DNA of 64,000 bases from Staphylococcus phage Machias: sequence record MW349128.1; one strand, given 5' to 3'. This document shows, piece after piece, positions 11,999 through 64,000 of this stretch. Position 1 is the first letter of the stretch; the number at the start of each line of letters is the position of its first letter. A program made the translations under genes and the position numbers. The notes beneath the pieces were generated by a model. That model was given only the letters and a program-made list of their open reading frames with translations, was not told where the DNA came from and ran no database searches.

Positions 11999-12274
11999 TT
12001 ATTTCTTACTGTCTAATTCAGCTAATTTTAATTTAGCTTTAGTCGCATATTTTTGACGGATTATATCACGCCATTTTTTACGAGCACGAGCAGCTTTTTG
12101 ATATTTAAAGTAAATTGGATCTTGAGCTTCTTTAGCAGCAACTAAAGCTAATTGGTTCAATCTACGTTTACGTTTAGTTTGTTCATCTAAACGCATGATA
12201 TTTTGCTCACGTAAAAGAGCTTCATCAGTAGCTTTCATAATTTGCTCTTCTAGTGGAGATAAATTATTAGACAA
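11999..12274 (-). CDS. small basic (K/R-rich) protein, possible nucleic-acid-binding
   Basis: ORF of 91 aa; KRKRRLNQ and KKWRDIIRQKYATKAKLK segments. Confidence 0.45.
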   Translation of the reverse strand: MSNNLSPLEEQIMKATDEALLREQNIMRLDEQTKRKRRLNQLALVAAKEAQDPIYFKYQKAARARKKWRDIIRQKYATKAKLKLAELDSKK

Positions 12275-12406
12275 AATATTTCACATCTCTTTCTTAGATT
12301 TATTTAGTTTATTAATAAATAGTATGTTTTGTTAATGATAGTTTAAAAATTTTAATAATAAAGAATAACTAGATTTTTATAATTATGTAGGAGGTTAGTA
12401 AACCAA

Positions 12407-13409
12407 ATGACAACAGAATTAAAGAATAAAGAAGAAAGAAAAAGAGCTTTAACTGGATATTTAGAACAATTGGTATGGATGGTTCAAAAGAATAATCCTG
12501 ATTTTGATAAAGAAGAAATATTAAAAGAATGTAGAGAATTTGTAAAAGAAAATGTTAAACCTGTTATGACAGAGGTATCAGGTCAAGAAATGAATGTTGA
12601 TTCTTTATTACGTACAGTTATTAATTCAAATTTAATAGTAACTGGATCAGGTTCGATTTATCAAACACAATCACAAAGAAAAAATTTAAATGCAGAGATG
12701 TTAAAAGACTTCATTGATTCACGTAAAGTAGCTAAACATAATATGTTTATAAGTAAAGGTGTAGACGATGTTAAATATCATAAATATATGAATGAACAAA
12801 AAACAATTAAGATCTTGGCTAATAGTTACTATGGTGCTATGATACAAGGAAATAGTATTTTCTATGATCCTTATTCAGGACCTGCTATCACATATAGTGG
12901 TGTTGATATTGTTACGACTTCAGCAATAGCTTTAGAAAGATTTATAGGTAGTAAAATATTCTTTATGAATATTAGTGAGATTTATAATTATATCGTAAGA
13001 ATATGTCAAGAAGAATATAAAGATCATGATATTAAGATAAATTCAGTTCCTACTGATAATGAAATATTAAAAGGTTTATTGGATAACGTAGAATATAATT
13101 TCTCTGAAGATGAAGAAAATGATTTAAAAGAATTCTTTAGTAATTTAACTCAAGATGAGAAAAATAGAGTTTATTTTAAAAATAATCTTTATGGTTTATT
13201 AGATCACACTGATATATTTGATAATAAAATTAGTAAAATGACAGGTAGAGAAGATTTCTTAGATCCGAACGAACCACCTGAAGATATGATACCATTATTA
13301 GATGAATTATTTGATATATTAGAAGACTGGGTTATTTATAATTATCAAGATTACAATAGAATGTATAGAATGAATTATAAAAAACGTAGAAGTGTACTTA
13401 CAATCGATT
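12407..13409 (+). CDS. DNA polymerase family B, C-terminal subunit, exon 1 (motif B KILANSYYGAM, degenerate motif C region, KKRRSVL = KKRY motif)
   Basis: alignment to T4 gp43 (KxxxNSxYG, ...KKRYALNVWD); own strong RBS aggagg and ATG; exon ends at CGATT (13405..13409), which pairs with intron IGS GGTCG. Confidence 0.75.
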
Positions 13410-14050
13410 ATGATAACATGGTCGCTGCTTAAAGTAATTTAAGTTGATTCACATTATTAATTGCTGAGAAAGTATTTATTAAATTAATCAGCATCAATCA
13501 ATATGATTGTTCAACGACTAAATATAATGATACTCATAAAGAGTATATGATATAGTCTATTTTATATTTAAAAATATAATATTAAAGACAGATAGTAACT
13601 TCGTACATTTAGATCCATTATATCAAAAAATGAAAGAAAAGAAACCTGAAGATTTCCCTATTGCAGAAAATGGTTTAGAAGATAAATTAGAACAACGTGT
13701 AGGTAATATATCTATTATTAACTATCAAATTACTAAATTGCTAGAATTATCTTATCATAGATTCTGTAAAGATTTAGGATTAGAAGATGAACATTTAGGT
13801 GTTATATCTATGAAAAATGAGTATGTAAATGCTCCAGTATACAGTAATGTGTATTAGTAAATATTATTAATTGCTGAGACAAAATAAAATTAATCAGCAT
13901 CTTCAAATAATGAAGTTCAACGACTAAATATAATAATTCTTAATAATAAAGAATATGATATAGTCTAGTCTTATATTTAAAATATAAGTATAAACGTTTT
14001 ACTTGACAAACAGTTAACAACAGATAAAAAGAAAACTTATGCTTCATCAG
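13410..14050 (+). mobile_element. composite (twin/tandem) group I intron region: core A 13410..~13625, internal ORF 13630..13857, core B ~13825..14050
   Basis: two complete copies of P3-P4 (ATTAATTGCTGAG), P4'-P6 (AATCAGCATC..), J6/7-P7 (GTTCAACGACTAAAT), P8, P7' (GATATAGTCTA) and P9 hairpins; joining 13409 to 14051 restores ...KKRRSVLTID-L-IQQEGNLVQPPDLDVKGM, colinear with T4 ...KKRYALNVWDMEGTRYAEPKLKIMG. Confidence 0.6.
13630..13857 (+). other. 75-codon ORF between intron cores A and B: either an intron-borne ORF or an insertion exon of polB (unresolved)
   Basis: open frame with no SD sequence; does not align to the T4 gp43 KKRY-to-KIMG segment. Confidence 0.3.
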
Positions 14051-14697
14051 TAATTCAACAAGAGGGTAATTTAGTTCAACCACCAGACTTAGATGTTAAA
14101 GGTATGGCTATTAGAAAAGTTAATACTAATAAACGTATTAGAGAATTATTTACTGAAATATTACAAAAAGATATCTTAGAAAATAAAACTGGAATTGATA
14201 GAATTGGAATTATACGTAAATATAAAGAAATTGAAGAAATGATTAAAAAATCATTAGAGAATGGTGATATTGAATTCTTAAAACCTGGTAAAGCTAATAA
14301 CGCAGAAGTATATAAAGATCCTTATACACAAATGAATTATAGAGCAGCTTTATCATGGAATTTAATGTATCCAGATAAAGAAATATCTCTTCCAGCAAAT
14401 ATCTTAATGGTTAAATTAAATATTAAATCATTTGGAGATATTAAGGATAAAGTTGATGATGAAGAATTATTAGATAAATTTAGAGAAGTATTTAGAAACG
14501 AAAGATTAGTTAAAAATGGAATGAATGTAATTGCAGTTGAAGGTAATACAATTCCTGAAGAATTTAGACCTTTTATTGATTATGATTCAATGATAGAAGA
14601 TCATATTAAACCAGGTAAAGATATTATTGAATCTATTGGAGTTAAAGTGTTAGAATCTTCAAATAGTTCTTTCGTATCAAATATGGTTAAATTTTAA
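14051..14697 (+). CDS. DNA polymerase family B, C-terminal subunit, last exon (thumb region)
   Basis: in-frame continuation ...QQEGNLVQPPDLDVKGMAIRKVNTNK aligns to T4 MEGTRYAEPKLKIMGLETQKSSTPK; omega-G at 14050. Confidence 0.65.
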
Positions 14698-14720
14698 AAA
14701 AAAAAAGGAGGGTATATTTA

Positions 14721-15224
14721 ATGAGATACTTTTTATTTAAACCTAAAAAGTTTCAAGAACTATTTGAAACTGAAAAGAAATTATCATCTGTCTTTGAATA
14801 TTATAGAGATATGAAAAAAGATATTGTATTTAAAGTTGATGAAAATGATGATATTTTTATGATGTTATATAATATTTTAAGTGATGAAATATTACCTTTT
14901 ATAAGATGTAAAGTATACAATAAAAAAGATGGAGAAATACTAAAAGCATCAGAATTATATGTCCCTATTAGTTTGGATATTCATAAAGAAATAAATATAA
15001 ATAAAAATAGTATAGAGTATGATTCTAACATGCCTTATAAACATGGTTTAATTGAATGTCCATCTATTGACGAAGATAATACTAACAATTATCTTCGTTT
15101 AAATTTTCAATATAATGACAAAGATGATTATTTTTATATTTACTTAAATGATATTTATGCTATTTTTGAAGAGATAGATAAAACAGAATTTATGAAAATA
15201 GAAACTAAAAAGAATTTTATGTAG
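14721..15224 (+). CDS. hypothetical protein (167 aa)
   Basis: ORF with RBS aaaggaggg. Confidence 0.5.
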   Translation: MRYFLFKPKKFQELFETEKKLSSVFEYYRDMKKDIVFKVDENDDIFMMLYNILSDEILPFIRCKVYNKKDGEILKASELYVPISLDIHKEININKNSIEYDSNMPYKHGLIECPSIDEDNTNNYLRLNFQYNDKDDYFYIYLNDIYAIFEEIDKTEFMKIETKKNFM

Positions 15225-15283
15225 ATTGAAAAAATTTATTATTTTCATATAAAAATTCTTGCTTAATTTTTAATTTTATGTTA

Positions 15284-15300
15284 AAATATATATTATAAAA
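15284..15300 (+). promoter_or_regulatory. promoter-like motif AAATATATATTATAAAA
   Basis: consensus copy 60 nt upstream of gene 15362; followed by weak hairpin AGAATA..TATTCT. Confidence 0.45.
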
Positions 15301-15361
15301 ACGAGAATATGTCACTATTAAAATTAAACTTATTCTTAATAAATTTGGAGAGTGAAAAGAA

Positions 15362-16672
15362 ATGGCAAAACAATCAGATGTATTTAGTAAAAAGAAATCA
15401 TTATATAGAAAAAATGGTAGAAAAATACCTTCTAAGTTTAGAAAGATGGATGTAGATGGTACTTGGTTTTATAGATTTGATCATAATAGATTTATCATTG
15501 ATAATTTAACTAGATTTATGGAAGATAAAGAATTAAAAAAATTATTAAATGATTATAGAAATAATTATGATAATAAAGAAAAATTTAATAATGATTGTTA
15601 CTTCTTTGAATTAGATAAAGATATACCTAAATTAAATAAATCTCAATTAAAGATATTCTTCACTCATTTATCTAGAAAACATATTGGAAAAGATTTCTTA
15701 AAAAATATTACTTTGAAAGATAATTCTAAATTAGAAATAAAAGAATTTGATGATTTAGAAATATGGTCAAGAGAACCTGATAAAGAAGAAGTATATGACG
15801 TTGGTTATCTTGATATGAAAGATTATAGAATGATTGCTCATATTGATCATGAAAATGAAGAAATTGTTATTCATACAGATATTGAAGAAGAAAATCCAAA
15901 ATCATATAGTACTTTAATTAGTTCTTTAGAATCAATTGAAATTGATGATTATTATGAAGATATTAGCTCTGATGAAATAAGAATTAAATTAAATGACTTT
16001 AATTTAAGAAAAGTATTTAATAAGACTAATAGTAAAATATTTAAAGTTATTTTACCAGTTACTTATAATTATGAAGGTTTTGATGATCAAGTGTCCTTCT
16101 TATTTGATAATTTCAGTAAAACATATATTAAACAACTTGAAAAAGAAGAATACGATAAGAAAATGCCTATCGGAGGACAACCTTATCATTTAAGACCTGA
16201 AAATAGACCTTATTATGCTAAACGTAGAATAATTAAAGATTGGAATATTTATGAAATATTTGATGAAGATAAAGATGGATATAAATTATTCAGTGTTAAA
16301 GATGATCAAGGGTTTATTTATTTAATATACTATATTGGTAAGAATTATCATGGTAAAGGTATAATAGTTAACGGTAAAGAATCTCCAGAACTTCAAGATC
16401 CGTCTAATTATAGAAAATCAGTTAAATTAAAAGATATTTATTACAGTGTATTAATTTCACAAGCTAAATATAATCTAATGAAGAAAAATAAATTTGATAT
16501 TTATACAGCTTTTGATACATCCAACCCTAAATATATGACAATTTCAGATGAAGAAAATATTCATACAACTGATTTCTTAATACCTGAAAGACCATTTAAA
16601 ATTAGACAAACTAAATTTAGAGAAGATAAAATATCAAATTTAAAAGATAAATTCGTAGAGGAGTTTGAATAG
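15362..16672 (+). CDS. hypothetical protein (436 aa)
   Basis: ORF with RBS ggagagtgaaaag. Confidence 0.55.
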   Translation: MAKQSDVFSKKKSLYRKNGRKIPSKFRKMDVDGTWFYRFDHNRFIIDNLTRFMEDKELKKLLNDYRNNYDNKEKFNNDCYFFELDKDIPKLNKSQLKIFFTHLSRKHIGKDFLKNITLKDNSKLEIKEFDDLEIWSREPDKEEVYDVGYLDMKDYRMIAHIDHENEEIVIHTDIEEENPKSYSTLISSLESIEIDDYYEDISSDEIRIKLNDFNLRKVFNKTNSKIFKVILPVTYNYEGFDDQVSFLFDNFSKTYIKQLEKEEYDKKMPIGGQPYHLRPENRPYYAKRRIIKDWNIYEIFDEDKDGYKLFSVKDDQGFIYLIYYIGKNYHGKGIIVNGKESPELQDPSNYRKSVKLKDIYYSVLISQAKYNLMKKNKFDIYTAFDTSNPKYMTISDEENIHTTDFLIPERPFKIRQTKFREDKISNLKDKFVEEFE

Positions 16673-16675
16673 TAT

Positions 16676-17410
16676 ATGGAGGATAATGAATATATGTATA
16701 CAGAAGATGAAATGAATACAGGTCATATAGTTGCGGATTGTGATGAAGTTTTAGTCAATATATCGCCAAAGATAGTTCAATTAATGCATGAAGATTATGA
16801 ATATTATAATCAATTCTTTAGATTATCTGAAGATTTTGATTATAATAAACATTATGATGTAATATTAAGTAGACCTGAATACTATATAGATCAATGGTTA
16901 GTTAGAAAAGATGTTTATAATAACTTTTCAGAAAAAGAAGTTAATGAAGCAAGAGAAAGACTACAAAATGAAATTATATTTAAAAAAGATTTATATGATG
17001 AACTTCAACCAACTAATTTAGGTAGAAGTTTATCATATACCATTAATACACCGTTAATGAATAAATTAACTATCGTTACTAAAACTTCAGATAATAATCT
17101 AAAATCTAAAGAGAAGTTTTTAAAAACTTTATTTAGAGGAAGTATGGATAAAGTTGATATATTCTACTTAGAACCAGATGAGAAAAAATCTGATGTGATT
17201 AATTCTTTAGGATATGTTACTAGAATATATGAAGATGAAGTAAGTAATATTAGTGATATTATAAAGAACTGTCAAAATGTAACACAAACAGGAATTGATA
17301 TTCCTTCATTGGGATATAATCAAGATATCGATGAAGGAACGATATTAAAAGCTAAAGAAAAGAAAATTGATTTAAACTATTTCAGTTATATGGGACAAAG
17401 TATTAAATAA
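16676..17410 (+). CDS. hypothetical protein (244 aa)
   Basis: ORF with RBS tatggagg, tightly coupled to the upstream gene. Confidence 0.55.
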   Translation: MEDNEYMYTEDEMNTGHIVADCDEVLVNISPKIVQLMHEDYEYYNQFFRLSEDFDYNKHYDVILSRPEYYIDQWLVRKDVYNNFSEKEVNEARERLQNEIIFKKDLYDELQPTNLGRSLSYTINTPLMNKLTIVTKTSDNNLKSKEKFLKTLFRGSMDKVDIFYLEPDEKKSDVINSLGYVTRIYEDEVSNISDIIKNCQNVTQTGIDIPSLGYNQDIDEGTILKAKEKKIDLNYFSYMGQSIK

Positions 17411-17412
17411 AC

Positions 17413-17470
17413 AAATAATCCATGTTTGACAAATTCAAGTCAAACATGGATTTATTATAATTTTTTTTTT
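17413..17470. terminator. rho-independent terminator (AATCCATGTTTGAC / loop / GTCAAACATGGATT + T10)
   Basis: 14-bp perfect stem followed by a poly-T run. Confidence 0.75.
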
Positions 17471-17508
17471 ATAAAAATTGACATTGAGGAAGGAAATTAA
17501 AATGAAAA

Positions 17509-17802
17509 ATGGACATTAAAGATTTCATAATAGTTTTTTCTTTATTCTATCTTATTTTAGTTGCTATACCGTCTGTAATATTCTTAAGTAAAATTAATTA
17601 CAAAAAGAGTAATAAAATTATTATATTATTCTTTAATATAATAATCGTTTTATTTATATGTATTACTGTATTACTGTATAATTTATTTAATAAAGAAGAT
17701 AATAAAGAATCACTAAAATATTATAATAAAGAAGAAAATATAATAGATTATTATATCGAAAAAGATATTAATCCATTATTAAAAGAAAGTGATGTGAAAT
17801 AG
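17509..17802 (+). CDS. small membrane protein (two predicted TM helices)
   Basis: FIIVFSLFYLILVAIPSVIFL and IIILFFNIIIVLFICITVLLY hydrophobic segments. Confidence 0.5.
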   Translation: MDIKDFIIVFSLFYLILVAIPSVIFLSKINYKKSNKIIILFFNIIIVLFICITVLLYNLFNKEDNKESLKYYNKEENIIDYYIEKDINPLLKESDVK

Positions 17803-17805
17803 TAA

Positions 17806-18957
17806 ATGAAAGTAGATATGATAGATATTGAACAAGTCATAACTGATACAAATGCTAAAGAAGTAACCAATCCTGTATTTTTCGATTCAGGTATACTACC
17901 AAAAGAAGATGGTTTATTTTCATATGATATATTTGGTTTAATAGGTACTCCTGAAAGAAAAACCAATTTAGGTTGGATTAATTTAAAGGATAAATACCTT
18001 AATCCGGTGGCTTATAAAGCATTAAAAGATTTAGATAAAAATATTGAACTATGTATTCAGGGTTCAGAGTATTTTAAAGTAGAAAAAGGTCAATTAGTTC
18101 CTTCAGAAGATGGAGATACTGGACTGAATTTCTTATATGAAGTATTTGATGATTTAAAATTTAGAAAGAATGATTCTCGTATTAGATCTGAAAAAATTGA
18201 TATGATTAAAAATACAGATAAGCAAAAAATATTTGTAGATAAATGGCTAGTAATACCTGCTTTTTATAGAGACTTTAATCCTAATGAAACTTCAGGAGAA
18301 ATTCAAGATACTGAAGAAGTTAATAATATGTATTCTTCTATTATACGTTCTGTAGATGCTATTAGTTTTAATTCTTTTGGTTTTATTGCTAACAGTACTA
18401 AATATAATATACAAAATACATTATTTGAAATATATCAGAAATTTACTTCAGGAGAATTATCAGGTAAAACTGGTTTTATGCAAAAACGTATATTGGGTAA
18501 AACAGTAGATAATAGTACTCGTGCAGTTATTTCTTCACCTAAAATTAATTCGAATAGATGGGATGAAATGCAGATAGAGTTTGGTGAGTTAGGTGTACCA
18601 TTAACTCAATTAGTTACCTTATTTTTACCATTCTTTAATAAGTATATAATTGATTTTATTGAACTTCATAAAGATGCTTTCCAAACAGCTACTGGAAATG
18701 ATGAGAAAGAATTATCATTAGAAGAAGTGTATGAACAATTCGATGATAAATCTATTAAGAATATGCTAGAATTCTTTATTAAAGATCCTAATGAAAGATT
18801 TAGTCCTATATATGTAAATGATAGAGAAGGTAAACGCCATAAAGTTAAATTATTTGAAAAAACTTTGGGTAGAGATTTTACTGTAATTGATTTACTTTAT
18901 ATTGCTGCAACCGAAATAGTAGAAGATAAGCATGTTATGTATTCAAGATATCCGATT
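17806..18957 (+). CDS. multisubunit RNA polymerase beta-prime-like subunit, N-terminal half, exon 1
   Basis: PKEDGLFSYDIFG ~ E. coli KPERDGLFCARIFGP; GKTGFMQKRILGKTVDNSTRAVIS ~ [23 protein letters not shown]; exon ends MYSRYPI (NRAPTLH region) at CGATT 18953..18957. Confidence 0.75.
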
Positions 18958-19152
18958 AATAAAATGGTCGCTGCTTAAAGTGATTTAAGTTGATAAACAT
19001 TGTTAATTGCTGAAATACTATTAATAAAGTTAATCAGCATCAATTAAATATAATTGTTCAACGACTAAATGCAATGATACTATTTAATAGTATATAATAT
19101 AGTCTAATTTATATAATACTTATATAAATATAATAAATGCGAAAATTTCTTG
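18958..19152 (+). mobile_element. group I intron C (compact, no ORF)
   Basis: first 31 nt identical to intron A (ATGGTCGCTGCTTAAAGTRATTTAAGTTGAT, IGS GGTCG); cores TTAATTGCTGAAA / AATCAGCATC / GTTCAACGACTAAATGC / ATATAGTCTA; 3' end approximate. Confidence 0.65.
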
Positions 19153-19341
19153 AACGTAGCACCTGCTAAAATTAAAATATTAACTACTGTTGATACTATT
19201 CCAGAAATAATTTTAGATGATATAGTATTAAAAGATTACCCTAAAGTAGTAAGAGAGTATCCTGTTGATGAAGATATTTTCTTAGATACTGCAATCATAC
19301 ACAATTCATATGCTCAAGCACTTGGTGCAGATTTTGATGGC
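19153..19341 (+). CDS. RNAP beta-prime N-half, exon 2 (ends ...AQALGADFDG = first part of the NADFDGD catalytic motif)
   Basis: in-frame segment ending GADFDG immediately before intron D; start boundary uncertain (ORF track 19150..19365 reads through into the intron). Confidence 0.5.
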
Positions 19342-19491
19342 AAAATTTTATATTACCATCATTAAATAATATTAATTGCTGGAAAATCTAATAAGATAAT
19401 CAGCATCAACTTAATAAAAGTTGTTCAACGACTAAATATATTACTAAAGAAGATATAGTCTAATTATATGTAAATACATGTATATAAAATG
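19342..19491 (+). mobile_element. group I intron D (compact, no ORF)
   Basis: ATTAATTGCTGGAAAA / AATCAGCATCAAC / GTTCAACGACTAAATAT / GATATAGTCTAATT; omega-G at 19491. Confidence 0.65.
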
Positions 19492-19635
19492 GATATGATT
19501 TCAATACGCTCTTTATGGTCTGTAGAAGCAAATAAAGAAGCTGATAAACTTATTAATAAGAAAACTAATTACTTAAACTACACAGGAAATAGTATACGTG
19601 GAGTTGGTAATGAGAGTAAGTTTGTATGCTCTCAA
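19492..19635 (+). CDS. RNAP beta-prime N-half, exon 3 (DMISIRSLWSVEANKEADKLI...)
   Basis: aligns to E. coli [21 protein letters not shown] directly after NADFDG; the 3' end could lie anywhere 19606..19635. Confidence 0.5.
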
Positions 19636-19760
19636 TAAATTTCATTAATTGCTGGAAAAACAAAATTAATCAGCATCAACTTAATAAAAGTTGTTCAACG
19701 ACTAAATATGAAAATGATTTAAATATCATAAGATATAGTCTAATTATCATAAATATATGG
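19636..19760 (+). mobile_element. group I intron E (compact, no ORF)
   Basis: ATTAATTGCTGGAAAAA / AATCAGCATCAAC / GTTCAACGACTAAATATG / GATATAGTCTAATT, nearly identical to intron D; boundaries approximate. Confidence 0.6.
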
Positions 19761-19781
19761 TACAAGCTTTATATTCTTTAA
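19761..19781 (+). CDS. RNAP beta-prime N-half, tiny terminal exon (YKLYIL-stop ~ E. coli LGLYYMT), ends the N-terminal beta-prime polypeptide
   Basis: in-frame continuation after the omega-G at 19760; stop at 19779..19781; the beta-prime C-half is encoded separately at 39794. Confidence 0.3.
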   Translation, partial: YKLYIL

Positions 19782-19802
19782 CTAAAGAATAATTTAAAAA
19801 TT

Positions 19803-19837
19803 CAGAGTAACGGTCTAATATAGATCGTTACTCTTAT
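19803..19837. terminator. terminator hairpin (AGAGTAACG / loop / CGTTACTCT)
   Basis: 9-bp inverted repeat after the beta-prime N-half gene, followed by T-rich sequence. Confidence 0.55.
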
Positions 19838-19865
19838 TATATTGCTTTTATACAAAATACTTATT

Positions 19866-19883
19866 TAAATATATATTATAAAA
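19866..19883 (+). promoter_or_regulatory. promoter-like motif TAAATATATATTATAAAA upstream of the paralogue array
   Basis: exact consensus copy 30 nt upstream of the RBS of gene 19913. Confidence 0.45.
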
Positions 19884-19912
19884 TAGAAGTATATTAAAAT
19901 ACAAAAGGAGAA

Positions 19913-20545
19913 GTGATTATTTTGAATATTAATGATTATAGATATTTTAAAATGGATGATGGATTAATGCAAATCCATAAAGATAAAATTAAAGGAAATA
20001 TTACAGACTTGATAGGAATGTTGCATATTGATGTAGATCGTATCAAGGAAGATAATTTTCTAAATTTAGGTTTAGAAAGATTAAATATAAATATTTCTTT
20101 TGATAATCTTGAATTGGTATGGGAAAATATAAAATTTCAATTTAGTTTGTCGATAATTATTTTTGCTGAAAAACAAGAAAATGAATTAAATGAATATACA
20201 AGTAGTATAAGATTTTTTTATGATAATGAAGAAAGACAAATGGAGAGTGATAGATTTAAAAAACTTATATTAAATGTTGATTATATAAAAAATTTTGTAA
20301 GTTTAATGGTAGATGATAAAGAAATCGATGATTTAACAATTTCTATTTTTAATTATGATAAAAATGATTTTCATTTAAAATGTTCTGATATTGTAATTAG
20401 ATACTTATACGATTTAGAAAGAAGATTTAATGATAAAGGTTATGATTTGTTATTAAATGGTAAGAATATAAATGAATTAGAAGACAATGAAGAAAAAGAT
20501 ATTGATAAGATTAAGAAATATTTAGTGAAAGAAAATTTTAAATAA
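19913..20545 (+). CDS. tail-family paralogue 1 (C-terminus ...DIDKIKKYLVKENFK)
   Basis: RBS aaaggagaag; GTG/TTG start region; conserved C-terminal tail. Confidence 0.6.
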   Translation: MIILNINDYRYFKMDDGLMQIHKDKIKGNITDLIGMLHIDVDRIKEDNFLNLGLERLNINISFDNLELVWENIKFQFSLSIIIFAEKQENELNEYTSSIRFFYDNEERQMESDRFKKLILNVDYIKNFVSLMVDDKEIDDLTISIFNYDKNDFHLKCSDIVIRYLYDLERRFNDKGYDLLLNGKNINELEDNEEKDIDKIKKYLVKENFK

Positions 20546-21219: not shown

Positions 21220-21236
21220 TGGAGTTGAAATAGATA

Positions 21237-32530: not shown

Positions 32531-32551
32531 ATTTGAAAAGGATGTTTTAAA

Positions 32552-32695: not shown

Positions 32696-32707
32696 TTAAT
32701 CAAACAT

Positions 32708-32813: not shown

Positions 32814-33282
32814 ATGGGTCGTTTTATAAAATCAACATATTTGAATAAAAAAGAAACATCTAATAAAAAAGAGAAAGTAGTAATGGTTGTTAAGGAAGAA
32901 GATGGAACTAAGAAACATATGGAAATAGTAGATCCTATGATGCATTATTATGTAACTAAAGATGAACATTGGTTACCACCTAATATAGTTGTAGGTTCTA
33001 TGGCTAAAGAAAAAGTTAGAACTGTACACTGTAAACATAAAGATGTTATTAAATCTATAGTTAGAGAAGCAGGTAATGCTCAAGATAAATCAGAATACGA
33101 TAGAATATTATCTTCAGGTAATTATGAAGAGTTTAGAAAATTAAAAGATTTTCATTTAATGAATAATGTTCATGGATCTGATATTAATATTGAAGATTAT
33201 AATATTAATGAGTATATCAAACAAAACTTAGATAGTAAAGTTGGAATTGATATATGTCTATTTGATATAGAGGTAGATGGAT
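32814..33282 (+). CDS. DNA polymerase family B, N-terminal subunit, exon 1 (Exo I motif FDIEVDG)
   Basis: RBS aggagg; ICLFDIEVDG ~ T4 gp43 ANCDIEVTGD; the exon end is approximate, chosen so the product reads DIEVDG-F-PEPGMAE against T4 DIEVTGDKFPDPMKAE. Confidence 0.7.
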
Positions 33283-34070
33283 CGCAAACAGTTGGGTTAA
33301 TTTAGGTAGCTCAATTAAAAAATTATTAATTGCTGAAAAGTTTAAAAATAATCAGCATCACTAATTTAGTGTTCAACGACTAAATATAATAATATAATTC
33401 AAATATACTTCCTTTATAAAAGGAGGAAAATAATGAAAGAAATATGGAAAGACATTAAAGATTTTGAAAATTACTATAAAATATCCAATACTGGTAAAGT
33501 TAAATCGGTTTCAAGATATGTATATAATGATTCTTTAAAAGGTAAAGATAAAAGAATGCTTATTAAAGAAAGAGTATTAAAAACAAGAATAAATAAAAAT
33601 GGTTATGAAGATGTTCAATTATATAGAAATAATAAGAAGCATACAAGAAGAATACACCGTTTAGTTGCAGAGAATTTTATCGAAAATAAAGATATTGATA
33701 AAAATGTAGTTAATCATATTGACGGTAATAAATTAAATAACAATTTATCTAATTTAGAATGGATGTCAGTATTAGAAAATAATTTACATGCTATAGAAAA
33801 TAATCTTCATAAAACTGATAAAATGGAAGAATCATTAAAAAAGAGAAGAAAACCAGTAGCACAAATAGATAAAGAAACAGATAAAATTATAAAAGAATAT
33901 GAAAGTGCTAAATTTGCAGCGGAAGAATTAAATATAGATAGAAAAGGAATACAAGCAGTTGCAAATGGTTATAGAAATAGTAAAACTTACAAAAATTTTA
34001 AATGGAAATATATTTGAATTTAAAAGATATAGTCTAATCTTTATACAATTGTATAAAGTTAATATAAATG
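33283..34070 (+). mobile_element. group I intron F with an HNH homing endonuclease ORF inserted between P7 and P7'
   Basis: ATTAATTGCTGAAAAG / AATCAGCATC / GTTCAACGACTAAATAT before the ORF and GATATAGTCTAATC (34026..34036) after it. Confidence 0.65.
33433..34017 (+). CDS. intron-encoded HNH homing endonuclease (NUMOD4-like N-terminus, HNH_3 core, C-terminal NUMOD1/IENR1-like HTH)
   Basis: MKEIWKDIKDFENYYKISNTGKVKS; VNHIDGNKLNNNLSNLEW; RBS aaaggagg. Confidence 0.8.
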   Translation: MKEIWKDIKDFENYYKISNTGKVKSVSRYVYNDSLKGKDKRMLIKERVLKTRINKNGYEDVQLYRNNKKHTRRIHRLVAENFIENKDIDKNVVNHIDGNKLNNNLSNLEWMSVLENNLHAIENNLHKTDKMEESLKKRRKPVAQIDKETDKIIKEYESAKFAAEELNIDRKGIQAVANGYRNSKTYKNFKWKYI

Positions 34071-34360
34071 TCCCTGAACCAGGAATGGCTGAAATTAATA
34101 TTATAACTGTAGTTGATTGGAGTAAACGTAAATGTTTAACATTTGCATTAAAATATGATACAGATAATTATAATGAAGTTATGACAGATAAAACTAAATT
34201 AATGGAAGATCTAAATAATATTTATAATAATAAAGATAGCGAGATTGGAGAAGATTTAGGTTTAGAATTTGAAATATATGAATTAGATACTGAAATGGAA
34301 ATTATTAAATCATTCTTATACTATATTAATGAAATTAGTAAGCCTGATATATGTACGGCT
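34071..34360 (+). CDS. DNA polymerase family B, N-terminal subunit, exon 2 (ends ...KPDICTA before Exo II)
   Basis: PEPGMAEINIITVVDWSKRKCLTFAL ~ T4 PDPMKAEYEIDAITHYDSIDDRFYVFDL; the exon end ACGGCT pairs with intron IGS GGTCGT. Confidence 0.7.
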
Positions 34361-35447
34361 TGAGAAACACACTGGGTCGTGTAAAACCTTTTTAATTGCT
34401 GGAACGTCCTTATTGCTTAGTGAGCTACAACGTGACTGGTAACGGTGAGCGTGATATGCTTAAAAATCATTAAGATTGGATAATCAGCAGCGAAGACTCT
34501 ATAAATCCTTTTCAAGAAAGGATGATTAATATGAATTATAAACCGAAAAATAAAAAGAAAATAACCAATGAAGATTGGAAAGAAATTGTCAAAGAATTAG
34601 GTAATGATGAATATGAAGTATTAGGAGATTACCTGGGTACAAAAAACAAAATTGAAATGAAACATAAAATATGTGGAGAGACATTTTTTATGACACCAAA
34701 TAATTTTAAAATAAGTGAAAATCGTTGTCCTATCTGTTCTATAAAGAAAGTTTCAGAAAAACGTAGGAAGAAGACAAAGGAATTAAATGAAAAAATAAAA
34801 GAAGTTCTTGATGATTCTTATGAATTTAAATTGAACGGTAATGAAACTGTTCATAATAAAATAAAAGTAAAACATAAACAATGTGGAAACGAATACAGTG
34901 TTTTAATAAGACATATAATTTATGATAAAAATAAATGTAGTAAATGTCAAGATTTTGTTAATTCAAGAGATGAAAAAGAAATAAATAAATTCCTTATAGA
35001 AATGGGCGTAGATTTCGAAAGACAATATAAATTTGAAGATGACAAAGTAAAAAATCTTAGATTTGACTTTGCAGTTTTTAAAAATAACGAAATCAAACTT
35101 ATAGAATTTGATGGTGAATTTCATTTTAAAGAAAAATTTGGTGGACCAAAAGCATTTGAGAAAGTAGTATACAATGACTATCTCAAAAATAAATTTTGTT
35201 TTGACAATAACATAAAATTACTTAGAATACCTTATTGGGAAAGTAATAATAAAAAAGAAATAATAAAAAGGTTTATAGAGTAACGTTCAACGACTATCGA
35301 AAAGTGAGCATTATGTCGAGAGGACCTATTGCAATATAACTGAGTAGAGTACACTTTTAATTAAGTGGAAAAAGAAGGGTATGTAGAGTAACGTCTATAT
35401 ACAAGATATAGTCTATCTTTCAATAAAATATATTTTATTGAAATTTG
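34361..35447 (+). mobile_element. group I intron G carrying a homing endonuclease ORF between P6 and P7
   Basis: P1 pairing ACGGCU/GGUCGU; TTAATTGCTGGAACG ... TAATCAGCAGC; after the ORF come GTTCAACGACTATCG ... AGATATAGTCTATC and a P9 hairpin; omega-G at 35447 immediately before TGG AAT (WN of Exo II). Confidence 0.7.
34522..35283 (+). CDS. intron-encoded homing endonuclease, tandem Zn-finger-like DNA-binding modules plus Vsr/PD-(D/E)xK-like (DUF559-like) nuclease domain
   Basis: two HKxCGxxF...NxxxxxRCPICS / KCSKC repeats; C-terminal LRFDFAVFKNNEIKLIEFDGEFH; homologous to ORF 63260..64000(-). Confidence 0.55.
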   Translation: MINMNYKPKNKKKITNEDWKEIVKELGNDEYEVLGDYLGTKNKIEMKHKICGETFFMTPNNFKISENRCPICSIKKVSEKRRKKTKELNEKIKEVLDDSYEFKLNGNETVHNKIKVKHKQCGNEYSVLIRHIIYDKNKCSKCQDFVNSRDEKEINKFLIEMGVDFERQYKFEDDKVKNLRFDFAVFKNNEIKLIEFDGEFHFKEKFGGPKAFEKVVYNDYLKNKFCFDNNIKLLRIPYWESNNKKEIIKRFIE

Positions 35448-36389
35448 TGGAATCTAGATTTTGACTTTGCAACTATATTTGAAAGAATTAAAGTTAATGG
35501 AGAAGATCCAGCTGATTATTTCTGTTCTAAAGATTTACAAGATAAAAAAGCTTATTATAGATTAGATAAAAACGCTACAGATGCAGCTAATAGATCATCT
35601 ACGTTCGAAACTAACTCATACACTAACTGGATTGACCAATTAGCTTTATATGCAAATGTAAATAAACCAAATGGTGTTATGGAATCAGTTAAGTTAAATG
35701 ATGTTGGTGAAAAAGAAACTGGTATTAAGAAAGATGTATATGAAGGATCTATCTCTGATTTACATTTTAGAGATTATTATACATTCATTCTTTATAACAT
35801 TAAAGATACTGTATTAACTGCTTTAATAGAAAAGAACACTAATATGTTTGATTTATTATTCTCTATTGTAGATATGACTAGAACTAGACCAAGTAAAGCA
35901 CTTAAGAAAACTATTTGTTTAAGAAATCGTAGTTCTGTCTTCTTTGAAAATCAAGGATATGTATTAAGTAATAATCACTCTAAAATACTATCTGATCCAA
36001 ATGCAGATAAAATACGTGGTGGATTTGTAGCTAATATGACATTAATAGAACGTATGGGTGATATTTTAGTTAAAGGTAGAGATATTAGATCTAATAGATT
36101 ATTTAGTAATGTTTGTGACTTTGACTTGAGTTCACTATATCCTTCTATTATTAGAGGATTTAATATAACACCTGAAGGGCATATAGGTAAAATTCAAATA
36201 CAAGATAAATCTACAATGACAGTTCCTAAGTATGAAGAAGACAAATTAAATTACGACTTTAATACTGAATTTATTAGTAAATTTAACAGTCAAGATAGTG
36301 TAGCATTTGCTCAAGAATTTCATGGTTTACCTCCATTGAATATTGCAGCTAAGAAAGTATCTGATAAAATAAAAAGTAAAGGAGCTTAA
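35448..36389 (+). CDS. DNA polymerase family B, N-terminal subunit, exon 3 (Exo II WNLDFDF, Exo III YNIKDTV, motif A [12 protein letters not shown]); the polypeptide ends 70 aa after motif A
   Basis: colinear with T4 gp43 GWNVESF / YNIIAVY / [23 protein letters not shown]; stop at 36389 with no intron signature after it. Confidence 0.8.
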   Translation, partial: [313 protein letters not shown]

Positions 36390-61458: not shown

Positions 61459-62217
61459 TTAAATCATATCTTTTACTTTACGTTTTAATTCTATTAAAGC
61501 TTTATTTGTGAATAGCATCATATAAATATCAACTGTCATACGAGAGACAATACTTAATGGAGAGAATACAGCTTCGATTTCCTCATCAGGTCTATATTCC
61601 GCATAAGGAGATTCATTTGGAGGAGTTACATCAGCAACTACAGTTTTACAAGCTCCATAGAAACTAATTTTATCTCCAACACTCATATCATCTTCATACT
61701 CAGTGAAGATTTCAATAAGAACTCCATCAACTTTTTCTCCTTTAATTTTCTCTGTATTAATTTTATCAACTGCAGCGATATCTACATCAATACCAGGTAA
61801 AGTTTCTTTATTATTTTTAATTCCAGATTTATACTCTTTATATTTATCATTTGATTTTTTAATGTAATTATTAACTAATTTAGCTAAACTATCAGTCATA
61901 TTTTCAATATCATCATTATAATAAATATTAATCTTTTTAATATTACCTGTATATTTACTTCTAACAGCTCGGTTAGCTATATCTTGAATATCTTGTTCAA
62001 ATTCACTACCAATTTTATCTAATAAAGAACCAATACCTTCTTCATCGAATGAAGTTTCAAATATCATTAAAGGATCTCCTGTACGTACTTTCTGACCTTC
62101 TTTAACTATATATTGAATATTTGTGTTTGATGGAATATTTACTGTTTTCTTCATAGTAACTTTAGTAGACATTGCTTCAGACATACTACTAGAAATAATA
62201 GAACTATCTTCATAAGT
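61459..62217 (-). CDS. multisubunit RNA polymerase beta-like subunit, last exon in window (TYEDSSIISS ... GDKISFYGACKTVV ... PLSIVSRMTVDIYMM)
   Basis: aligns to E. coli beta NFEDSILVSE ... GDKMAGRHGNKGVIS ... PLGVPSRMNIGQILE; the polypeptide stops shortly after the SRM motif, so the beta C-terminus is missing or encoded elsewhere. Confidence 0.75.
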   Translation of the reverse strand, partial: TYEDSSIISSSMSEAMSTKVTMKKTVNIPSNTNIQYIVKEGQKVRTGDPLMIFETSFDEEGIGSLLDKIGSEFEQDIQDIANRAVRSKYTGNIKKINIYYNDDIENMTDSLAKLVNNYIKKSNDKYKEYKSGIKNNKETLPGIDVDIAAVDKINTEKIKGEKVDGVLIEIFTEYEDDMSVGDKISFYGACKTVVADVTPPNESPYAEYRPDEEIEAVFSPLSIVSRMTVDIYMMLFTNKALIELKRKVKDMI

Positions 62218-62397
62218 CATTTATATTAGCTATTATATTTTTATAATAGATTAGACTATATCAAATTCATTAGTATTAATGAATAATCATATTTAGTCGT
62301 TGAACTCTATAAATGTAGAGATGCTGATTAATTTAATATTTCTCAGCAATTAATAATTTTTTGACATTACATTACTATAATGAAAGGCATTTATAAT
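62218..62397 (-). mobile_element. group I intron Z (~180 nt, no ORF), interrupting the GYNFEDA-motif region of beta
   Basis: minus-strand cores TTAATTGCTGAGAAAT / AATCAGCATC / GTTCAACGACTAAATATG / GATATAGTCTAATC plus P9 hairpin; omega-G is the G of the ATG at 62218. Confidence 0.65.
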
Positions 62398-62799
62398 ACC
62401 ATATGAGCTAGCTACAGATACTTTAGATAATTTACCTGAAGTGAATTGAATATCATTATTTTTACCAGATCCAGCAAAGAAATTATTATTTTTAGCAAGT
62501 ATTTGACCTTTATTAAAAGTGTCATCTACATTAAATTGTGGATCAAGTTTATTAGATTGATAAAAACCTGAGTTAGAGTTTTTGGCTAATTTTTCAGATA
62601 TATCAACAATATCTTTTTCACCATTGATATATTCCACTGTCATTAAACCAGTTTTCTCGTTAATTTTTAATACTTTACCATCTTGTTTAGCTTTAAAAGC
62701 AAATGTATCTGATAATTGATAAGCTAAAGATTTATCAACACCAGATCCAACTAATGGTTTACTATTAGTTTTTGTTGGAATTACGTGCTTGGCTTGAGT
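62398..62799 (-). CDS. RNAP beta-like subunit, exon (TQAKHVIPTKTNSKPLVGSGVDKSLAYQLSD ... KGQILAKNN ... SSYG)
   Basis: aligns to E. coli beta [29 protein letters not shown] ... RGDVLADGPS ... WNGYN. Confidence 0.75.
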
Positions 62800-63011
62800 C
62801 AGATTATCTTAATACACTTTGTTTATTGTGTATTAGTTCTTAATGAACTTCTTTAAAATAAATTAAAGCTGAGACTATATCAAATACCATTTAGGTATAA
62901 TCTTATTTAGTCGTTGAACAATTTGATTGATGCTGATTAATTTAATTATTATTTTCTCAGCAATTAAAGATTTTTCTATTATTATATTACTATAATAAAG
63001 GGCATTCATAT
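62800..63011 (-). mobile_element. group I intron Y (~212 nt, no ORF)
   Basis: minus-strand TTAATTGCTGAGAAAAT / AATCAGCATCAATC / GTTCAACGACTAAATAAG / GATATAGTCTCAGC; 5' leader region ATATGAATGCCCTTTATTATAGTAAT shared with intron Z. Confidence 0.65.
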
Positions 63012-63176
63012 ACCAGTCATTCCTATACGTGGACTATCTGCATGTTTTGAGCTGAATGGGTTGAGCAATTCTAATGGAGTGTATAGAGATGTATCACTCG
63101 CATCTTTCTTACCGCCATCTGTATAACCTCTAGTGGATTTAATTAGTGAATCATATGAAAGCTGTCTGACCACTCC
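63012..63176 (-). CDS. RNAP beta-like subunit, exon (…LELLNPFSSKHADSPRIGMTG ~ E. coli SLIPFLEHDDANRALMGAN); 5' boundary unresolved
   Basis: relatively GC-rich conserved segment; joins to the next exon as MTG-TQAKHVIP ~ MGANMQRQAVP. Confidence 0.55.
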
Positions 63177-64000
63177 TCAAATATCTTCAATAATGGGCGT
63201 TAACCATTACCAGTTCTCTTATGAACTTCTTTAGGATTTCCCTAAAAGTTGAGACTATATCAAATACCATCAATTAATGGTATAGTTCTTTTTCCACTCA
63301 CTTGAGTGTACTCTACTTCATCAAATATATCTTTGAAATAATTTTTATTAAAATCAGTGTAATAATCTTTTTCATTTAATATTTTTTTATTTCTTATAAT
63401 GAGTATATTTGATTTTTCGATAGTCGTTGAACTATTTAAAATATCATGAAAGTTATCTAAAAAGAAATTGATATTATTTTTATTTATACGAATTAAAGTT
63501 AAATTATTTTTTAAACAAAAGTCATTTTTTATGTGGTCTTTTAGTGCATTTTCTTTGACATTTTCTAATTTTTGATATTTAGAATTATTTCTATACTTAA
63601 AATGTTGAACCCCATCAAATTCCAAAAGTATATTTTCGTTATTTAATGTAAATAAGAAATCAAATCTAAATCTATTAGTATTTTTAGAATAATAAAAATC
63701 ATTAAAAGACTTTTCTCTTTCATAATTTATATTATTTTCATCAAAGAATTTTCTAATTGATATTTCACCATTAGACTTAATAGCACAAATAGGACATCTG
63801 TGCCCTGCACTTACAAAACTGTTTGCACGCATCTCAAATACTTTACCACACTTATGATGTAATATTTTCATTTTAGTGAATAGATTAGTATATGTTTGTC
63901 CATCAATAAGAGAGTATTCATTTTTGCCTAAATATTCTATTTCTTTTTTAAAACTTTCAATTGTTCTTTTTTTTATATTTAGAACATTTAGGACACTTCT
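63177..64000 (-). mobile_element. group I intron X (3' part; the 5' part and P1-P6 lie beyond the window end) carrying a homing endonuclease ORF
   Basis: minus-strand GTTCAACGACTATCGAAAAA (63417..63436) and GATATAGTCTC (63249..63259) plus a P9 hairpin; 3' region homologous to intron G of polB. Confidence 0.55.
63260..64000 (-). CDS. intron-encoded homing endonuclease (homologue of 34522..35283), partial at the window edge; C-terminal coding overlaps the intron P7-P8-P7' core
   Basis: HHKCGKVFEMRANSFVSAGHRCPICA; FRFDFLFTLNNENILLEFDGVQH; open frame continues upstream of the ORF-track start 63871 (…TIESFKKEIEYLGKNEYSLIDG ~ N-terminus of 34522 ORF). Confidence 0.55.
   Translation of the reverse strand, partial: RSVLNVLNIKKRTIESFKKEIEYLGKNEYSLIDGQTYTNLFTKMKILHHKCGKVFEMRANSFVSAGHRCPICAIKSNGEISIRKFFDENNINYEREKSFNDFYYSKNTNRFRFDFLFTLNNENILLEFDGVQHFKYRNNSKYQKLENVKENALKDHIKNDFCLKNNLTLIRINKNNINFFLDNFHDILNSSTTIEKSNILIIRNKKILNEKDYYTDFNKNYFKDIFDEVEYTQVSGKRTIPLIDGI

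What the first reader, a model, noticed from the sequence alone, without database searches (positions are those of the whole stretch)
12407..19781. Very high group I intron density: at least 10 intron cores interrupting polB, RNAP beta-prime and RNAP beta within 64 kb
Every intron shows the canonical group I core in the correct order: P3-J3/4-P4 ATTAATTGCTG(A/G)GAAA, which compares with Tetrahymena CAAAUUGCGGGAAA; P4'/P6 AATCAGCATC..CAATCA/TGATTG; J6/7-P7 GTTCAACGACTAAAT, which compares with GUUCACAGACUAAAU; a P8 hairpin; P7' (A)GATATAGTC, which compares with AGAUAUAGUC; and a P9 hairpin. The + strand cores are at 13410, ~13825, 18958, 19342, 19636, 33283 and 34361. The minus strand cores are at 62218..62397, 62800..63011 and 63177 onwards. 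Several are only ~180-215 nt, near the lower size limit for group I ribozymes, with a reduced P5. They sit exactly in the most conserved catalytic codons. One splits the RNAP beta-prime NADFDGD motif between DFDG and D. One lies in the beta GYNFEDA region, one at NRAPTLH of beta-prime, and others at Exo I/II and KKRY of polB. Ten self-splicing introns in four essential genes is exceptional even among intron-rich Staphylococcus and Bacillus phages.
Basis: partly seen in the sequence, partly recalled or inferred. Interest (0 to 1): 0.85.

Follow-up and report, generated by a model that had tools for sequence, protein, structure and literature searches.

The report
Swarm of miniature group I introns
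Four essential polymerase genes of this Staphylococcus jumbo phage are broken by ten group I introns, seven of them unusually tiny (142-212 nt) members of one family that standard databases miss and that reaches about 31 copies per genome in the closest relative.

Summary
The window is 95-98% identical to the Staphylococcus jumbo phages AH12 and PB50. It holds ten intervening sequences in the two DNA polymerase B genes and the virion RNA polymerase beta-prime and beta genes. Intron-free alleles of phage DC4 fix nine junction pairs. In silico removal gives stop-free ORFs of DC4 length. All ten end in G. Eight of nine follow a U paired to G in P1; I4 follows a C. P3, P4, P6, P7 and P8 are supported by covariation (97% of cells paired, 143 compensatory cells against 42 expected). 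Rfam RF00028 aligns full length to most of them but scores only 15-34 bits against a threshold of 50, so routine scans see nothing. Eight belong to one miniature family with P5 nearly absent; some members lack P2, P8 or P9. AH12 has 31 copies and DC4 has none. Content differs between near-identical genomes. Insertion sites fall into classes that match each intron's guide sequence. Intron-split genes in these phages were already reported (Korn et al. for MarsHill-like phages; they and other held papers cite Lavysh et al. for AR9). The miniature family, its copy number and its targeting pattern were not found in the searchable literature. Self-splicing is inferred, not shown.

The parts
13409..13587 (+). 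I1, 179-nt ORF-less mini group I intron in the polB catalytic-subunit gene. It splits motif C (TID|TDS).
   Evidence: Junction from DC4 allele. R1 108 bits. RF00028 29.9 bits, full length. P1 CGAU|UAUG/CAUGGUCG with U.G.
13823..13996 (+). I2, 174-nt mini intron in the polB catalytic-subunit gene (KNE(F)|LLDK, phase 1).
   Evidence: R1 95.5 bits. RF00028 17.3 bits. P1 GAGU|AU/AUGCUC.
18957..19139 (+). I3, 183-nt mini intron in virion RNAP beta-prime (SRYP(I)|ENF). It shares its P1-P2 region and CGAU target with I1.
   Evidence: R1 104.8 bits. RF00028 22.4 bits, partial.
19342..19491 (+). I4, 150-nt mini intron splitting the catalytic DFDG|D motif of beta-prime. It has no P8 hairpin and has C, not U, at -1, opposite an A of the guide sequence.
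   Evidence: R1 90.8 bits. RF00028 34.2 bits. The AH12 orthologue is 98.7% identical.
19618..19759 (+). I5, 142-nt mini intron in beta-prime (GNES|VQAL). It has no P2, no P5 helix and no P9 hairpin. The exon after it is 33 nt.
   Evidence: R1 98.2 bits. RF00028 27.8 bits. P1 UGAGAGU/GCUCUCA.
33298..34070 (+). I6, 773-nt intron of the mini family in the polB exonuclease-subunit gene (SQTVG|FPEP, 9 codons after Exo I DIE). An endonuclease ORF sits in the P8 loop.
   Evidence: R1 68.6 bits on 33320-33412. AH12 has an ORF-less intron at the same site, 154 nt by the splice-aware alignment.
33433..34017 (+). HNH/NUMOD homing-endonuclease ORF (194 aa) inside I6.
   Evidence: Pfam NUMOD4 56 bits and HNH_3 35.5 bits.
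34361..35447 (+). I7, 1087-nt conventional-size group I intron in the polB exonuclease-subunit gene (CTA|WNLDFD, Exo II). It has a larger P5, an ORF in the P6 loop, and the P7 variant GTTCAACGACTATCG.
   Evidence: RF00028 21.8 bits on the 5' half. Empty site in AH12. A 66-nt block is 98.5% identical to the DNA pol I intron of K-like phage phiSA_BS1.
34522..35283 (+). Endonuclease ORF (253 aa) inside I7.
   Evidence: phrog_559 'HNH endonuclease' E 1.4e-54. No Pfam hit.
63171..64000 (-). I8, the 3' part (more than 830 nt) of an ORF-bearing group I intron in virion RNAP beta. Its 5' end lies beyond the window.
   Evidence: 3' junction ...GAGTG|GTCAGACAG from the DC4 allele. P7 at 63432-63418 and P7' at 63261-63253. 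Absent from AH12.
63260..63871 (-). Endonuclease ORF (203 aa) inside I8, a paralogue of the I7 ORF. Its 3' end overlaps P7 to P7'.
   Evidence: phrog_559 E 1.9e-28. 32% identity to the I7 ORF.
62800..63011 (-). I9, 212-nt mini intron in virion RNAP beta (GMTG|TQAKH), with extra 3' hairpins.
   Evidence: R1 92.6 bits. RF00028 26.9 bits. P1 GGU|AU/AUGCC.
62218..62397 (-). I10, 180-nt mini intron in virion RNAP beta (SSYG|TYEDS, the GYNxEDS region).
   Evidence: R1 98 bits. RF00028 15.9 bits.
12407..14697 (+). polB catalytic-subunit gene. Exons are 12407-13408, 13588-13822 and 13997-14697.
   Evidence: Spliced ORF of 645 aa, no stops, 80.8% identical to the 644-aa DC4 protein. The DC4 protein hits Pfam divDNApol and DNA_pol_B.
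17806..19792 (+). Virion RNAP beta-prime N-terminal subunit gene. Exons are 17806-18956, 19140-19341, 19492-19617 and 19760-19792.
   Evidence: Spliced ORF of 503 aa against 503 aa in DC4, 85.1% identity. Pfam RNA_pol_Rpb1_2.
32814..36389 (+). polB exonuclease-subunit gene. Exons are 32814-33297, 34071-34360 and 35448-36389.
   Evidence: Spliced ORF of 571 aa against 573 aa in DC4, 82.9% identity. phrog_3011 DNA polymerase.
61459..63170 (-). 3' part of the virion RNAP beta gene. Exons are 63170-63012, 62799-62398 and 62217-61459.
   Evidence: Spliced 439 aa, no stops, 84.3% identical to DC4 beta residues 979-1417. phrog_14872 RNAP beta.

Best explanation
The ten elements are group I introns that are removed from the mRNAs of four essential phage genes: the polB catalytic and exonuclease subunits and the virion RNA polymerase beta-prime and beta. 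Removal follows the standard guanosine-initiated two-step transesterification. The guide sequence pairs with the last 3-8 nt of the upstream exon (P1, with a U.G wobble at the cut). The P7 pocket binds first free G and then the intron's terminal G, and the exons are ligated to restore catalytic motifs such as DTD and DFDGD. Seven (I1-I5, I9, I10) are ORF-less members of one miniature family. They keep P1, P3, P4, P6, P7 and usually P8 and P9, reduce P5 to an A-rich loop, and often lack P2. I6 is the same family with an HNH/NUMOD endonuclease inserted in P8. I7 and I8 are conventional ORF-bearing introns with paralogous endonucleases. The family is a recently active mobile element of one clade of Staphylococcus jumbo phages. 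Shown here: the sequence anatomy, exact ORF restoration, covariation, copy number and polymorphism. Inferred: catalysis, and whether the introns splice unaided.
For: Junctions and ORF restoration. P1 with U.G in 8 of 9 introns, terminal G in 10 of 10. Covariation on 31 AH12 copies: 97.2% of cells paired, 143 compensatory cells against 42 in shuffles (0 of 500), slid controls 26-49% paired, compensatory changes in 5 of 6 P3 pairs, 4 of 5 P6 pairs and 4 of 4 P8 pairs. RNAalifold independently recovers P4, P6, P7 and P8. RF00028 aligns end to end (model positions 1-253) to I1, I2, I4, I5, I7, I9 and I10, with local E-values down to 7e-7. The identical P7 15-mer occurs in ordinary 300-470-nt viral introns that score 71-99 bits. 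Exons as short as 33 nt, and a catalytic triad split between fragments, cannot function unspliced. Orthologous introns are conserved at 96-100% identity in AH12, a phage deposited as an isolate with a complete genome.
Against: No intron reaches the Rfam gathering score. I4 has C at -1 and no P8. I5 lacks P2, P5 and P9. G+C is 19-22%, so unaided folding may be weak. No RNA or biochemical data exist for this phage or its close relatives. The covariation alignment was fitted to a model built from the window's own copies.
Confidence: 0.92

Rival explanations
1. They are group I introns, but the most reduced ones (I4 without P8; I5 without P2, P5 and P9) are not autonomous ribozymes. They would need a phage or host RNA chaperone or maturase-like protein, or help from another intron copy, to fold and splice.
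For: P5 is absent or at most 5 bp in nearly all 31 AH12 copies, and P8 is absent in 4 of them. I5 has no stable 3' hairpin. G+C is 19-22%. RF00028 scores are low.
Against: From memory (Doudna and Szostak 1989), sunY derivatives of about 180 nt remain active in vitro. A 63-75-nt degenerate rDNA intron is reported to splice in vitro (PMC3160393). The core junction sequences J3/4, J6/7 and J8/7 are intact in every copy.
Confidence: 0.3
2. The gene pieces are not spliced but are translated as separate subunits, as with the natural splits of jumbo-phage RNA polymerase genes. On this view the intron-like sequences are spacers or relics.
For: Jumbo-phage beta and beta-prime genes are naturally split into several genes (PMC7598289). 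GenBank annotators of AH12 called the fragments as separate hypothetical proteins.
Against: Internal exons lack start codons and ribosome-binding sites. Exons are as short as 33 nt in the window and 6-16 nt in AH12. The splits fall inside DTD and DFDGD. DC4 has single uninterrupted genes of the same length. The spacers show RNA-structure covariation.
Confidence: 0.02
3. The elements are another kind of intervening sequence, such as group II introns, inteins or translational bypass elements.
For: Held papers report a group II intron in an AR9 and PBS1 RNA polymerase gene (PMC12350094) and an intein in the gyrA of MarsHill-like phages (10.1101/2020.12.14.422802).
Against: There were no group II hits in the Rfam scans. 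In-frame stop codons follow each 5' junction, which excludes inteins. Lengths of 142-1087 nt exclude bypassing. The core matches group I in sequence, order and pseudoknot topology.
Confidence: 0.01

Closest known systems
[quoted passage not shown]
   Same: Same phage clade (about 80% nucleotide identity). The same genes are interrupted (DNA polymerase subunits, virion and non-virion RNAP subunits, gyrB). The same mini-intron family is present, with 9 and 11 blastn places. Variable exon numbers between relatives were noted.
   Different: That work inferred introns from protein alignments only. The held preprint text never uses the term 'group I intron', and in the passages I read it gives no RNA structure, family or copy-number analysis. 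The window's lineage (AH12, PB50) carries two to three times more copies.
Self-splicing introns of Bacillus jumbo phage AR9/PBS1 (Lavysh et al. 2016, Virology; that paper could not be read here)
   Same: Held papers that cite it describe AR9, a related uracil-DNA jumbo phage with two multisubunit RNAPs, as having a similar set of genes disrupted by introns (10.1101/2020.12.14.422802), including a group II and a group I intron in an RNA polymerase gene (PMC12350094).
   Different: There is no detectable sequence relationship. blastn with two mini-introns finds only five Staphylococcus phages. The window-derived model R1 and RF00028 both fail on the two AR9 gp044 introns. The sizes and classes of the AR9 introns could not be checked.
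Group I introns of Staphylococcus phages Twort and K (Herelleviridae; Landthaler and Shub 1999, 2002)
   Same: Multiple introns per gene in Staphylococcus phage DNA-metabolism genes, with HNH-type intron endonucleases. I7 shares a 66-nt P7-P3' block at 98.5% identity with the DNA pol I intron of K-like phage phiSA_BS1.
   Different: From memory, those introns are about 250 nt or more with full P5 and P9 and peripheral elements, and number only a handful per genome. The mini family here is 142-212 nt with 31 copies per genome in AH12.
Minimal group I ribozymes: the Azoarcus tRNA-Ile intron (about 205 nt) and engineered T4 sunY mini-ribozymes (about 180 nt) (from memory), and degenerate 56-81-nt fungal rDNA introns (PMC3160393)
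   Same: They show that a group I core stripped of peripheral helices can still catalyse splicing.
   Different: The phage minis are natural, sit in protein-coding genes, are extremely A+U-rich, and have lost core-adjacent helices (P5, sometimes P8) rather than only peripheral ones. They also exist as a large multicopy family.

Membership tests
Group I intron (Rfam RF00028 Intron_gpI) | Score at or above the curated gathering threshold (50 bits) | tested here: not met
   No hit in whole-window scans. Sub-window scans give 15.2-34.2 bits, mostly full-length alignments. Control: ordinary viral introns with the same P7 15-mer score 71-99 bits, while mini relatives in jumbo contigs also score nothing.
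Group I intron | P1 helix between the 5' exon end and an internal guide sequence, with a U.G wobble at the 5' splice site | tested here: met
   Eight of nine mapped introns have U at -1 paired to G. I4 has C at -1 opposite A. The 5' end of I8 lies outside the window.
Group I intron | Guanosine as the last intron nucleotide (omega-G) | tested here: met
   10 of 10. For the 27 DC4-verified AH12 junctions, I read omega-G at each once synonymous codon shifts are allowed.
Group I intron | Conserved core P3-P4-P6-P7-P3'-P8-P7' with the P3/P7 pseudoknot, supported by covariation | tested here: met
   97.2% of cells paired, 143 compensatory cells against 42 (0 of 500 shuffles), slid controls 26-49%. 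RNAalifold recovers P4, P6, P7 and P8. P7 never varies, so it is uninformative for covariation.
Group I intron | P5 helix completing the P4-P6 domain | tested here: not met
   In most copies a 14-20-nt A-rich segment with no stable helix lies between P4 and P4'. I4 keeps 4 bp.
Group I intron | Precise excision restores a functional host gene | tested here: met
   Spliced ORFs of 645, 503 and 571 aa plus a 439-aa 3' part of beta, all stop-free and colinear with intron-free DC4 orthologues.
Group I intron | GTP-dependent self-splicing | not testable with these tools
   Needs in vitro transcription and splicing, or RNA from infected cells.
Subgroup IA2 (typical phage group I introns) | P7.1/P7.2 between P3' and P8 | tested here: not met
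   In the mini family P8 follows P3' directly. By my own reading of the sequence (not tested further), I7 has extra helices there.
HNH homing endonuclease (intron-encoded) | HNH catalytic domain with NUMOD DNA-binding modules | tested here: met
   I6 ORF: NUMOD4 at 56.3 bits and HNH_3 at 35.5 bits, both above cut-off. The I7 and I8 ORFs match only phrog_559 'HNH endonuclease' and have no Pfam hit.

The most novel reading that the evidence does not exclude
The ORF-less mini introns spread to new genes by guide-sequence-directed insertion. This would be reverse splicing into transcripts, or possibly into single-stranded DNA, at any site whose last 4-6 nt pair with the intron's guide sequence. 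Copying back into the genome would follow, possibly by the retron-like reverse transcriptase that every phage of this clade encodes, and then recombination. The family would then be the first case of a group I intron proliferating like a miniature transposon through protein-coding genes of a virus. It leaves exons as short as 6 nt.
Probability: 0.2. Interest if true: 0.85.

Novelty: new variant of a known kind. Interest (0 to 1): 0.62.

Why it matters
First, the family gives natural group I introns of 142-183 nt that lack P5 and sometimes P2, P8 or P9, yet sit in indispensable genes of phages deposited as isolates with complete genomes. That makes them a ready-made test set for the minimal catalytic core and for protein-assisted folding. 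Second, one family ranges from 0 copies (DC4) to 31 copies (AH12) within a single phage clade, and its content differs between genomes that are 95-99% identical. This is a rare snapshot of an ongoing intron invasion. Third, insertion sites cluster by the 5' exon sequence that pairs with the guide sequence, and much less by the 3' exon sequence. This makes the long-debated reverse-splicing route of group I intron spread directly testable in a culturable phage-host pair. Fourth, there is a practical consequence. Rfam-based annotation misses every copy, so polymerase genes in these genomes are deposited as strings of 'hypothetical proteins'.

Tried and rejected
Whole-window Rfam scans at the gathering threshold and at E up to 10 found no group I hit. 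Only short sub-windows gave sub-threshold hits. The window-derived model R1 found no further family members in the window; the next best hit (25 bits, 1831-1895 on the minus strand) lies inside an intact 742-aa ORF and is treated as chance. AR9 was meant as an experimentally validated comparator, but R1 and RF00028 both failed on the gp044 intron region, and the AR9 paper and the J Virol version of Korn et al. are not held. Literature searches for the smallest known group I intron gave little. A reverse transcriptase was examined as a possible correlate of intron load. It is present in all nine Staphylococcus jumbo phages, including intron-free DC4, so it is permissive but not discriminating. 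A regex search for RT motifs found nothing. My first hand assignment of AH12 5' splice sites was wrong for one intron (A14) and was replaced by splice-aware alignment to DC4. Four AH12 junctions (A03, A17, A18, A22) stayed unresolved and were left out of the statistics. Inteins, group II introns and translational bypass were considered and rejected (see rival explanations).


Full report
**Source of the window.** The window has about 24% G+C. Over 12000-20000 it is 95.6% identical to Staphylococcus jumbo phage AH12 and 98.1% to vB_StaM_PB50. It is about 80% identical to MarsHill, Madawaska, LY01, PALS_2, S6, DC4 and SA1. These are AR9-like jumbo phages that encode a virion and a non-virion multisubunit RNA polymerase (10.1101/2020.12.14.422802).

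- The 15-mer GTTCAACGACTAAAT (J6/7-P7-J7/3) occurs exactly eight times, and the variant GTTCAACGACTATCG twice. That is 13 matches at up to 3 mismatches against 3.55 expected, and 0 of 100 shuffles reached 13.
- The P3-J3/4-P4 motif gives 18 matches against 6.2 expected.
- GATATAGTC (AATATAGTC in I3) follows each core.

**Junctions.** Phage DC4 has uninterrupted alleles of all four genes. Protein and DNA alignment to them fixes nine junction pairs and the 3' junction of the tenth.

| Intron | Coordinates | Strand | Length (nt) |
|---|---|---|---|
| I1 | 13409-13587 | + | 179 |
| I2 | 13823-13996 | + | 174 |
| I3 | 18957-19139 | + | 183 |
| I4 | 19342-19491 | + | 150 |
| I5 | 19618-19759 | + | 142 |
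| I6 | 33298-34070 | + | 773 |
| I7 | 34361-35447 | + | 1087 |
| I8 | beyond the window end to 63171 | - | more than 830 |
| I9 | 63011-62800 | - | 212 |
| I10 | 62397-62218 | - | 180 |

In silico splicing gives stop-free ORFs:

| Gene | Spliced ORF (aa) | DC4 orthologue (aa) |
|---|---|---|
| polB catalytic subunit | 645 | 644 |
| Virion RNAP beta-prime | 503 | 503 |
| polB exonuclease subunit | 571 | 573 |
| Virion RNAP beta, 3' part | 439 | 439 |

- Identity to DC4 is 81-85%.
- The host genes are a divergent family B polymerase (Pfam divDNApol and DNA_pol_B) and a beta-prime fragment (Rpb1 domain 2).
- The other two are a polymerase exonuclease subunit and RNAP beta, identified by PHROGs.
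- Insertion points are TID|TDS (motif C), KNE(F)|LLDK, SRYP(I)|ENF, DFDG|D, GNES|VQAL, SQTVG|FPEP (after Exo I), CTA|WNLDFD (Exo II), GMTG|TQAKH and SSYG|TYEDS.

**Are they group I introns?**
- All ten end in G.
- Eight of nine mapped 5' sites follow a U that pairs with a G of a downstream guide sequence in a 3-8-bp P1. I4 follows a C that faces an A.
- I built a covariance model (R1) from the eight small cores. In the window it finds only those eight, at 69-108 bits.
- On the complete AH12 genome R1 finds 31 copies.
- On that alignment, P3, P4, P6, the P7 pseudoknot strand and P8 are 97.2% paired. There are 143 compensatory cells against 42 in shuffles (0 of 500), and slid controls are 26-49% paired.
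- RNAalifold recovers P4, P6, P7 and P8 on its own.
- Caveat: the alignment was fitted to a model derived from the window, and P4 and P7 hardly vary.

**Rfam.** RF00028 gives nothing on the whole window, even at E up to 10.
- On short sub-windows it aligns end to end to I1, I2, I4, I5, I7, I9 and I10, and partly to I3 and I6.
- The scores are only 15-34 bits against a 50-bit threshold.
- As a control, ordinary 300-470-nt viral introns that carry the identical P7 15-mer (from an IMG/VR scan that hit its 120-stretch limit) score 71-99 bits.
- Mini relatives in jumbo-size contigs score nothing.
- So the family shares the catalytic core of accepted members but is too reduced for the curated cut-off. 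This also explains why the DC4 authors' Rfam approach would not see such introns (PMC10638138).

**Architecture.**
- The ORF-less members have 19-22% G+C.
- P5 is replaced by a 14-20-nt A-rich segment in most copies. P8 is absent in 4 of the 31 AH12 copies, including the I4 orthologue.
- I4, I5 and I6 show no P2 hairpin, and I5 has no P9 hairpin.
- I6 is a mini intron with an HNH/NUMOD endonuclease ORF in P8. AH12 has the ORF-less form at the same site.
- I7 and I8 are larger and carry paralogous endonuclease ORFs (phrog_559). They use the P7 variant.
- A 66-nt block of I7 is 98.5% identical to the DNA pol I intron of K-like phage phiSA_BS1.

**Distribution and dynamics.**
- blastn finds the mini family only in AH12 (29 places), PB50 (18), LY01 (30), Madawaska (11) and MarsHill (9) among 50,697 phage records.
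- DC4 has no copy of even the 12-mer core; AH12 has 30.
- Relative to AH12, the window has I7 and I8 (empty sites in AH12) and the I6 ORF.
- AH12 has two extra minis, in beta-prime and in beta.
- Uncultured jumbo-size contigs carry related minis at up to seven copies in 4 kb.

**Target sites.**
- Splice-aware alignment of AH12 to DC4 fixed 27 junctions.
- The last 4 nt of the 5' exon are GGGT (8 sites), CGAT (5) or GAGT (4), and each class goes with a matching guide sequence and a similar P1-P2 region.
- Identical last-5-nt pairs number 29 against 2.7 expected under a G+C-matched null (0 of 20,000 simulations).
- The first 5 nt of the 3' exon give 3 identical pairs against 0.56 expected (407 of 20,000).
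- In the window the same pattern links I1 with I3 (CGAU), I9 with I10 (GGU), and I2 with I5 (GAGU).
- So colonisation is governed by guide-sequence complementarity. Whether through reverse splicing or through selection after insertion is not shown.
- All nine phages of the clade encode a retron-like reverse transcriptase, so its presence does not discriminate.

**What is known already.**
- Korn et al. reported intron-disrupted polymerase, RNAP, terminase, protease and gyrB genes in MarsHill-like phages from protein alignments. They noted variable exon numbers and cited Lavysh et al. 2016 for AR9.
- I could not read the AR9 paper. Held papers report a group II and a group I intron in an AR9 RNA polymerase gene (PMC12350094).
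- The general phenomenon is therefore known.
- I did not find the following in the searchable literature: assignment of these elements to one miniature group I family, its structure, its invisibility to Rfam, a copy number of about 31, the micro-exons, or the target classes.

**Verdict.** The finding is confirmed and its interpretation supported. Splicing itself is inferred. I rate it a new variant of a known kind and of moderate to high interest.

Noticed in passing
L127 (AH12 99601-149600), between R1 hits 19279-19383 and 19092-19196 on the minus strand: A 6-nt micro-exon, GCCGAT (Ala-Asp of the GAD|YDGD catalytic motif of non-virion RNAP beta-prime), lies between two mini introns. DC4 reads GGTGCTGACTATGATGG without interruption.
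   Followed up: partly
L126 (AH12 49801-99800) 20825-21530 on the plus strand; L129 33305-33581; L125 11410-11686; L129 37841-38144: Further micro-exons lie between adjacent mini introns in AH12. They are 11 nt (TATGACTGGGT), about 16 nt, 14-15 nt (ADFDG of virion beta-prime) and 24 nt (SPRIGMTG of virion beta). Three introns sit within 700 nt of one small gene.
   Followed up: partly
window 35289-35354: A 66-nt block of I7 (P7 through P3' and the following helices) is 98.5% identical to the DNA polymerase I intron of the K-like Herelleviridae phages phiSA_BS1 and BS2, while the rest of the intron is unrelated. This suggests mosaic exchange between introns of unrelated Staphylococcus phages.
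   Followed up: partly
L128 28582-30135 on the minus strand (AH12 177982-179535), with about 1.1 kb of non-coding DNA upstream: A retron-like reverse transcriptase (Pfam RVT_1, 72.5 bits) is conserved in all nine Staphylococcus jumbo phages, including intron-free DC4. Its function is unknown.
   Followed up: partly
window 63260-63432 on the minus strand: The last ~57 codons of the I8 endonuclease ORF overlap the ribozyme core from P7 to P7', so the same bases would serve both as coding sequence and as catalytic RNA. The I7 ORF instead stops 2 nt before P7.
   Followed up: no
window 19341/19342: I4 has C, not U, at the 5' splice site, facing an A of the guide sequence (a possible C.A wobble). 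This is conserved in AH12.
   Followed up: partly
window 1831-1895 on the minus strand: A weak match to the mini-intron model (25 bits, E 0.04) lies inside an intact 742-aa ORF. It is probably chance and was not examined further.
   Followed up: no
window 41714-41789: A sub-threshold Rfam caiA hit (29 bits, E 0.9). It looks like a hairpin plus a ribosome-binding site just upstream of the ORF at 41787.
   Followed up: no
window 32531-32813: A 284-nt stretch upstream of the polB exonuclease-subunit gene has no ORF of 50 aa or more, whereas DC4 annotates two small ORFs there.
   Followed up: no
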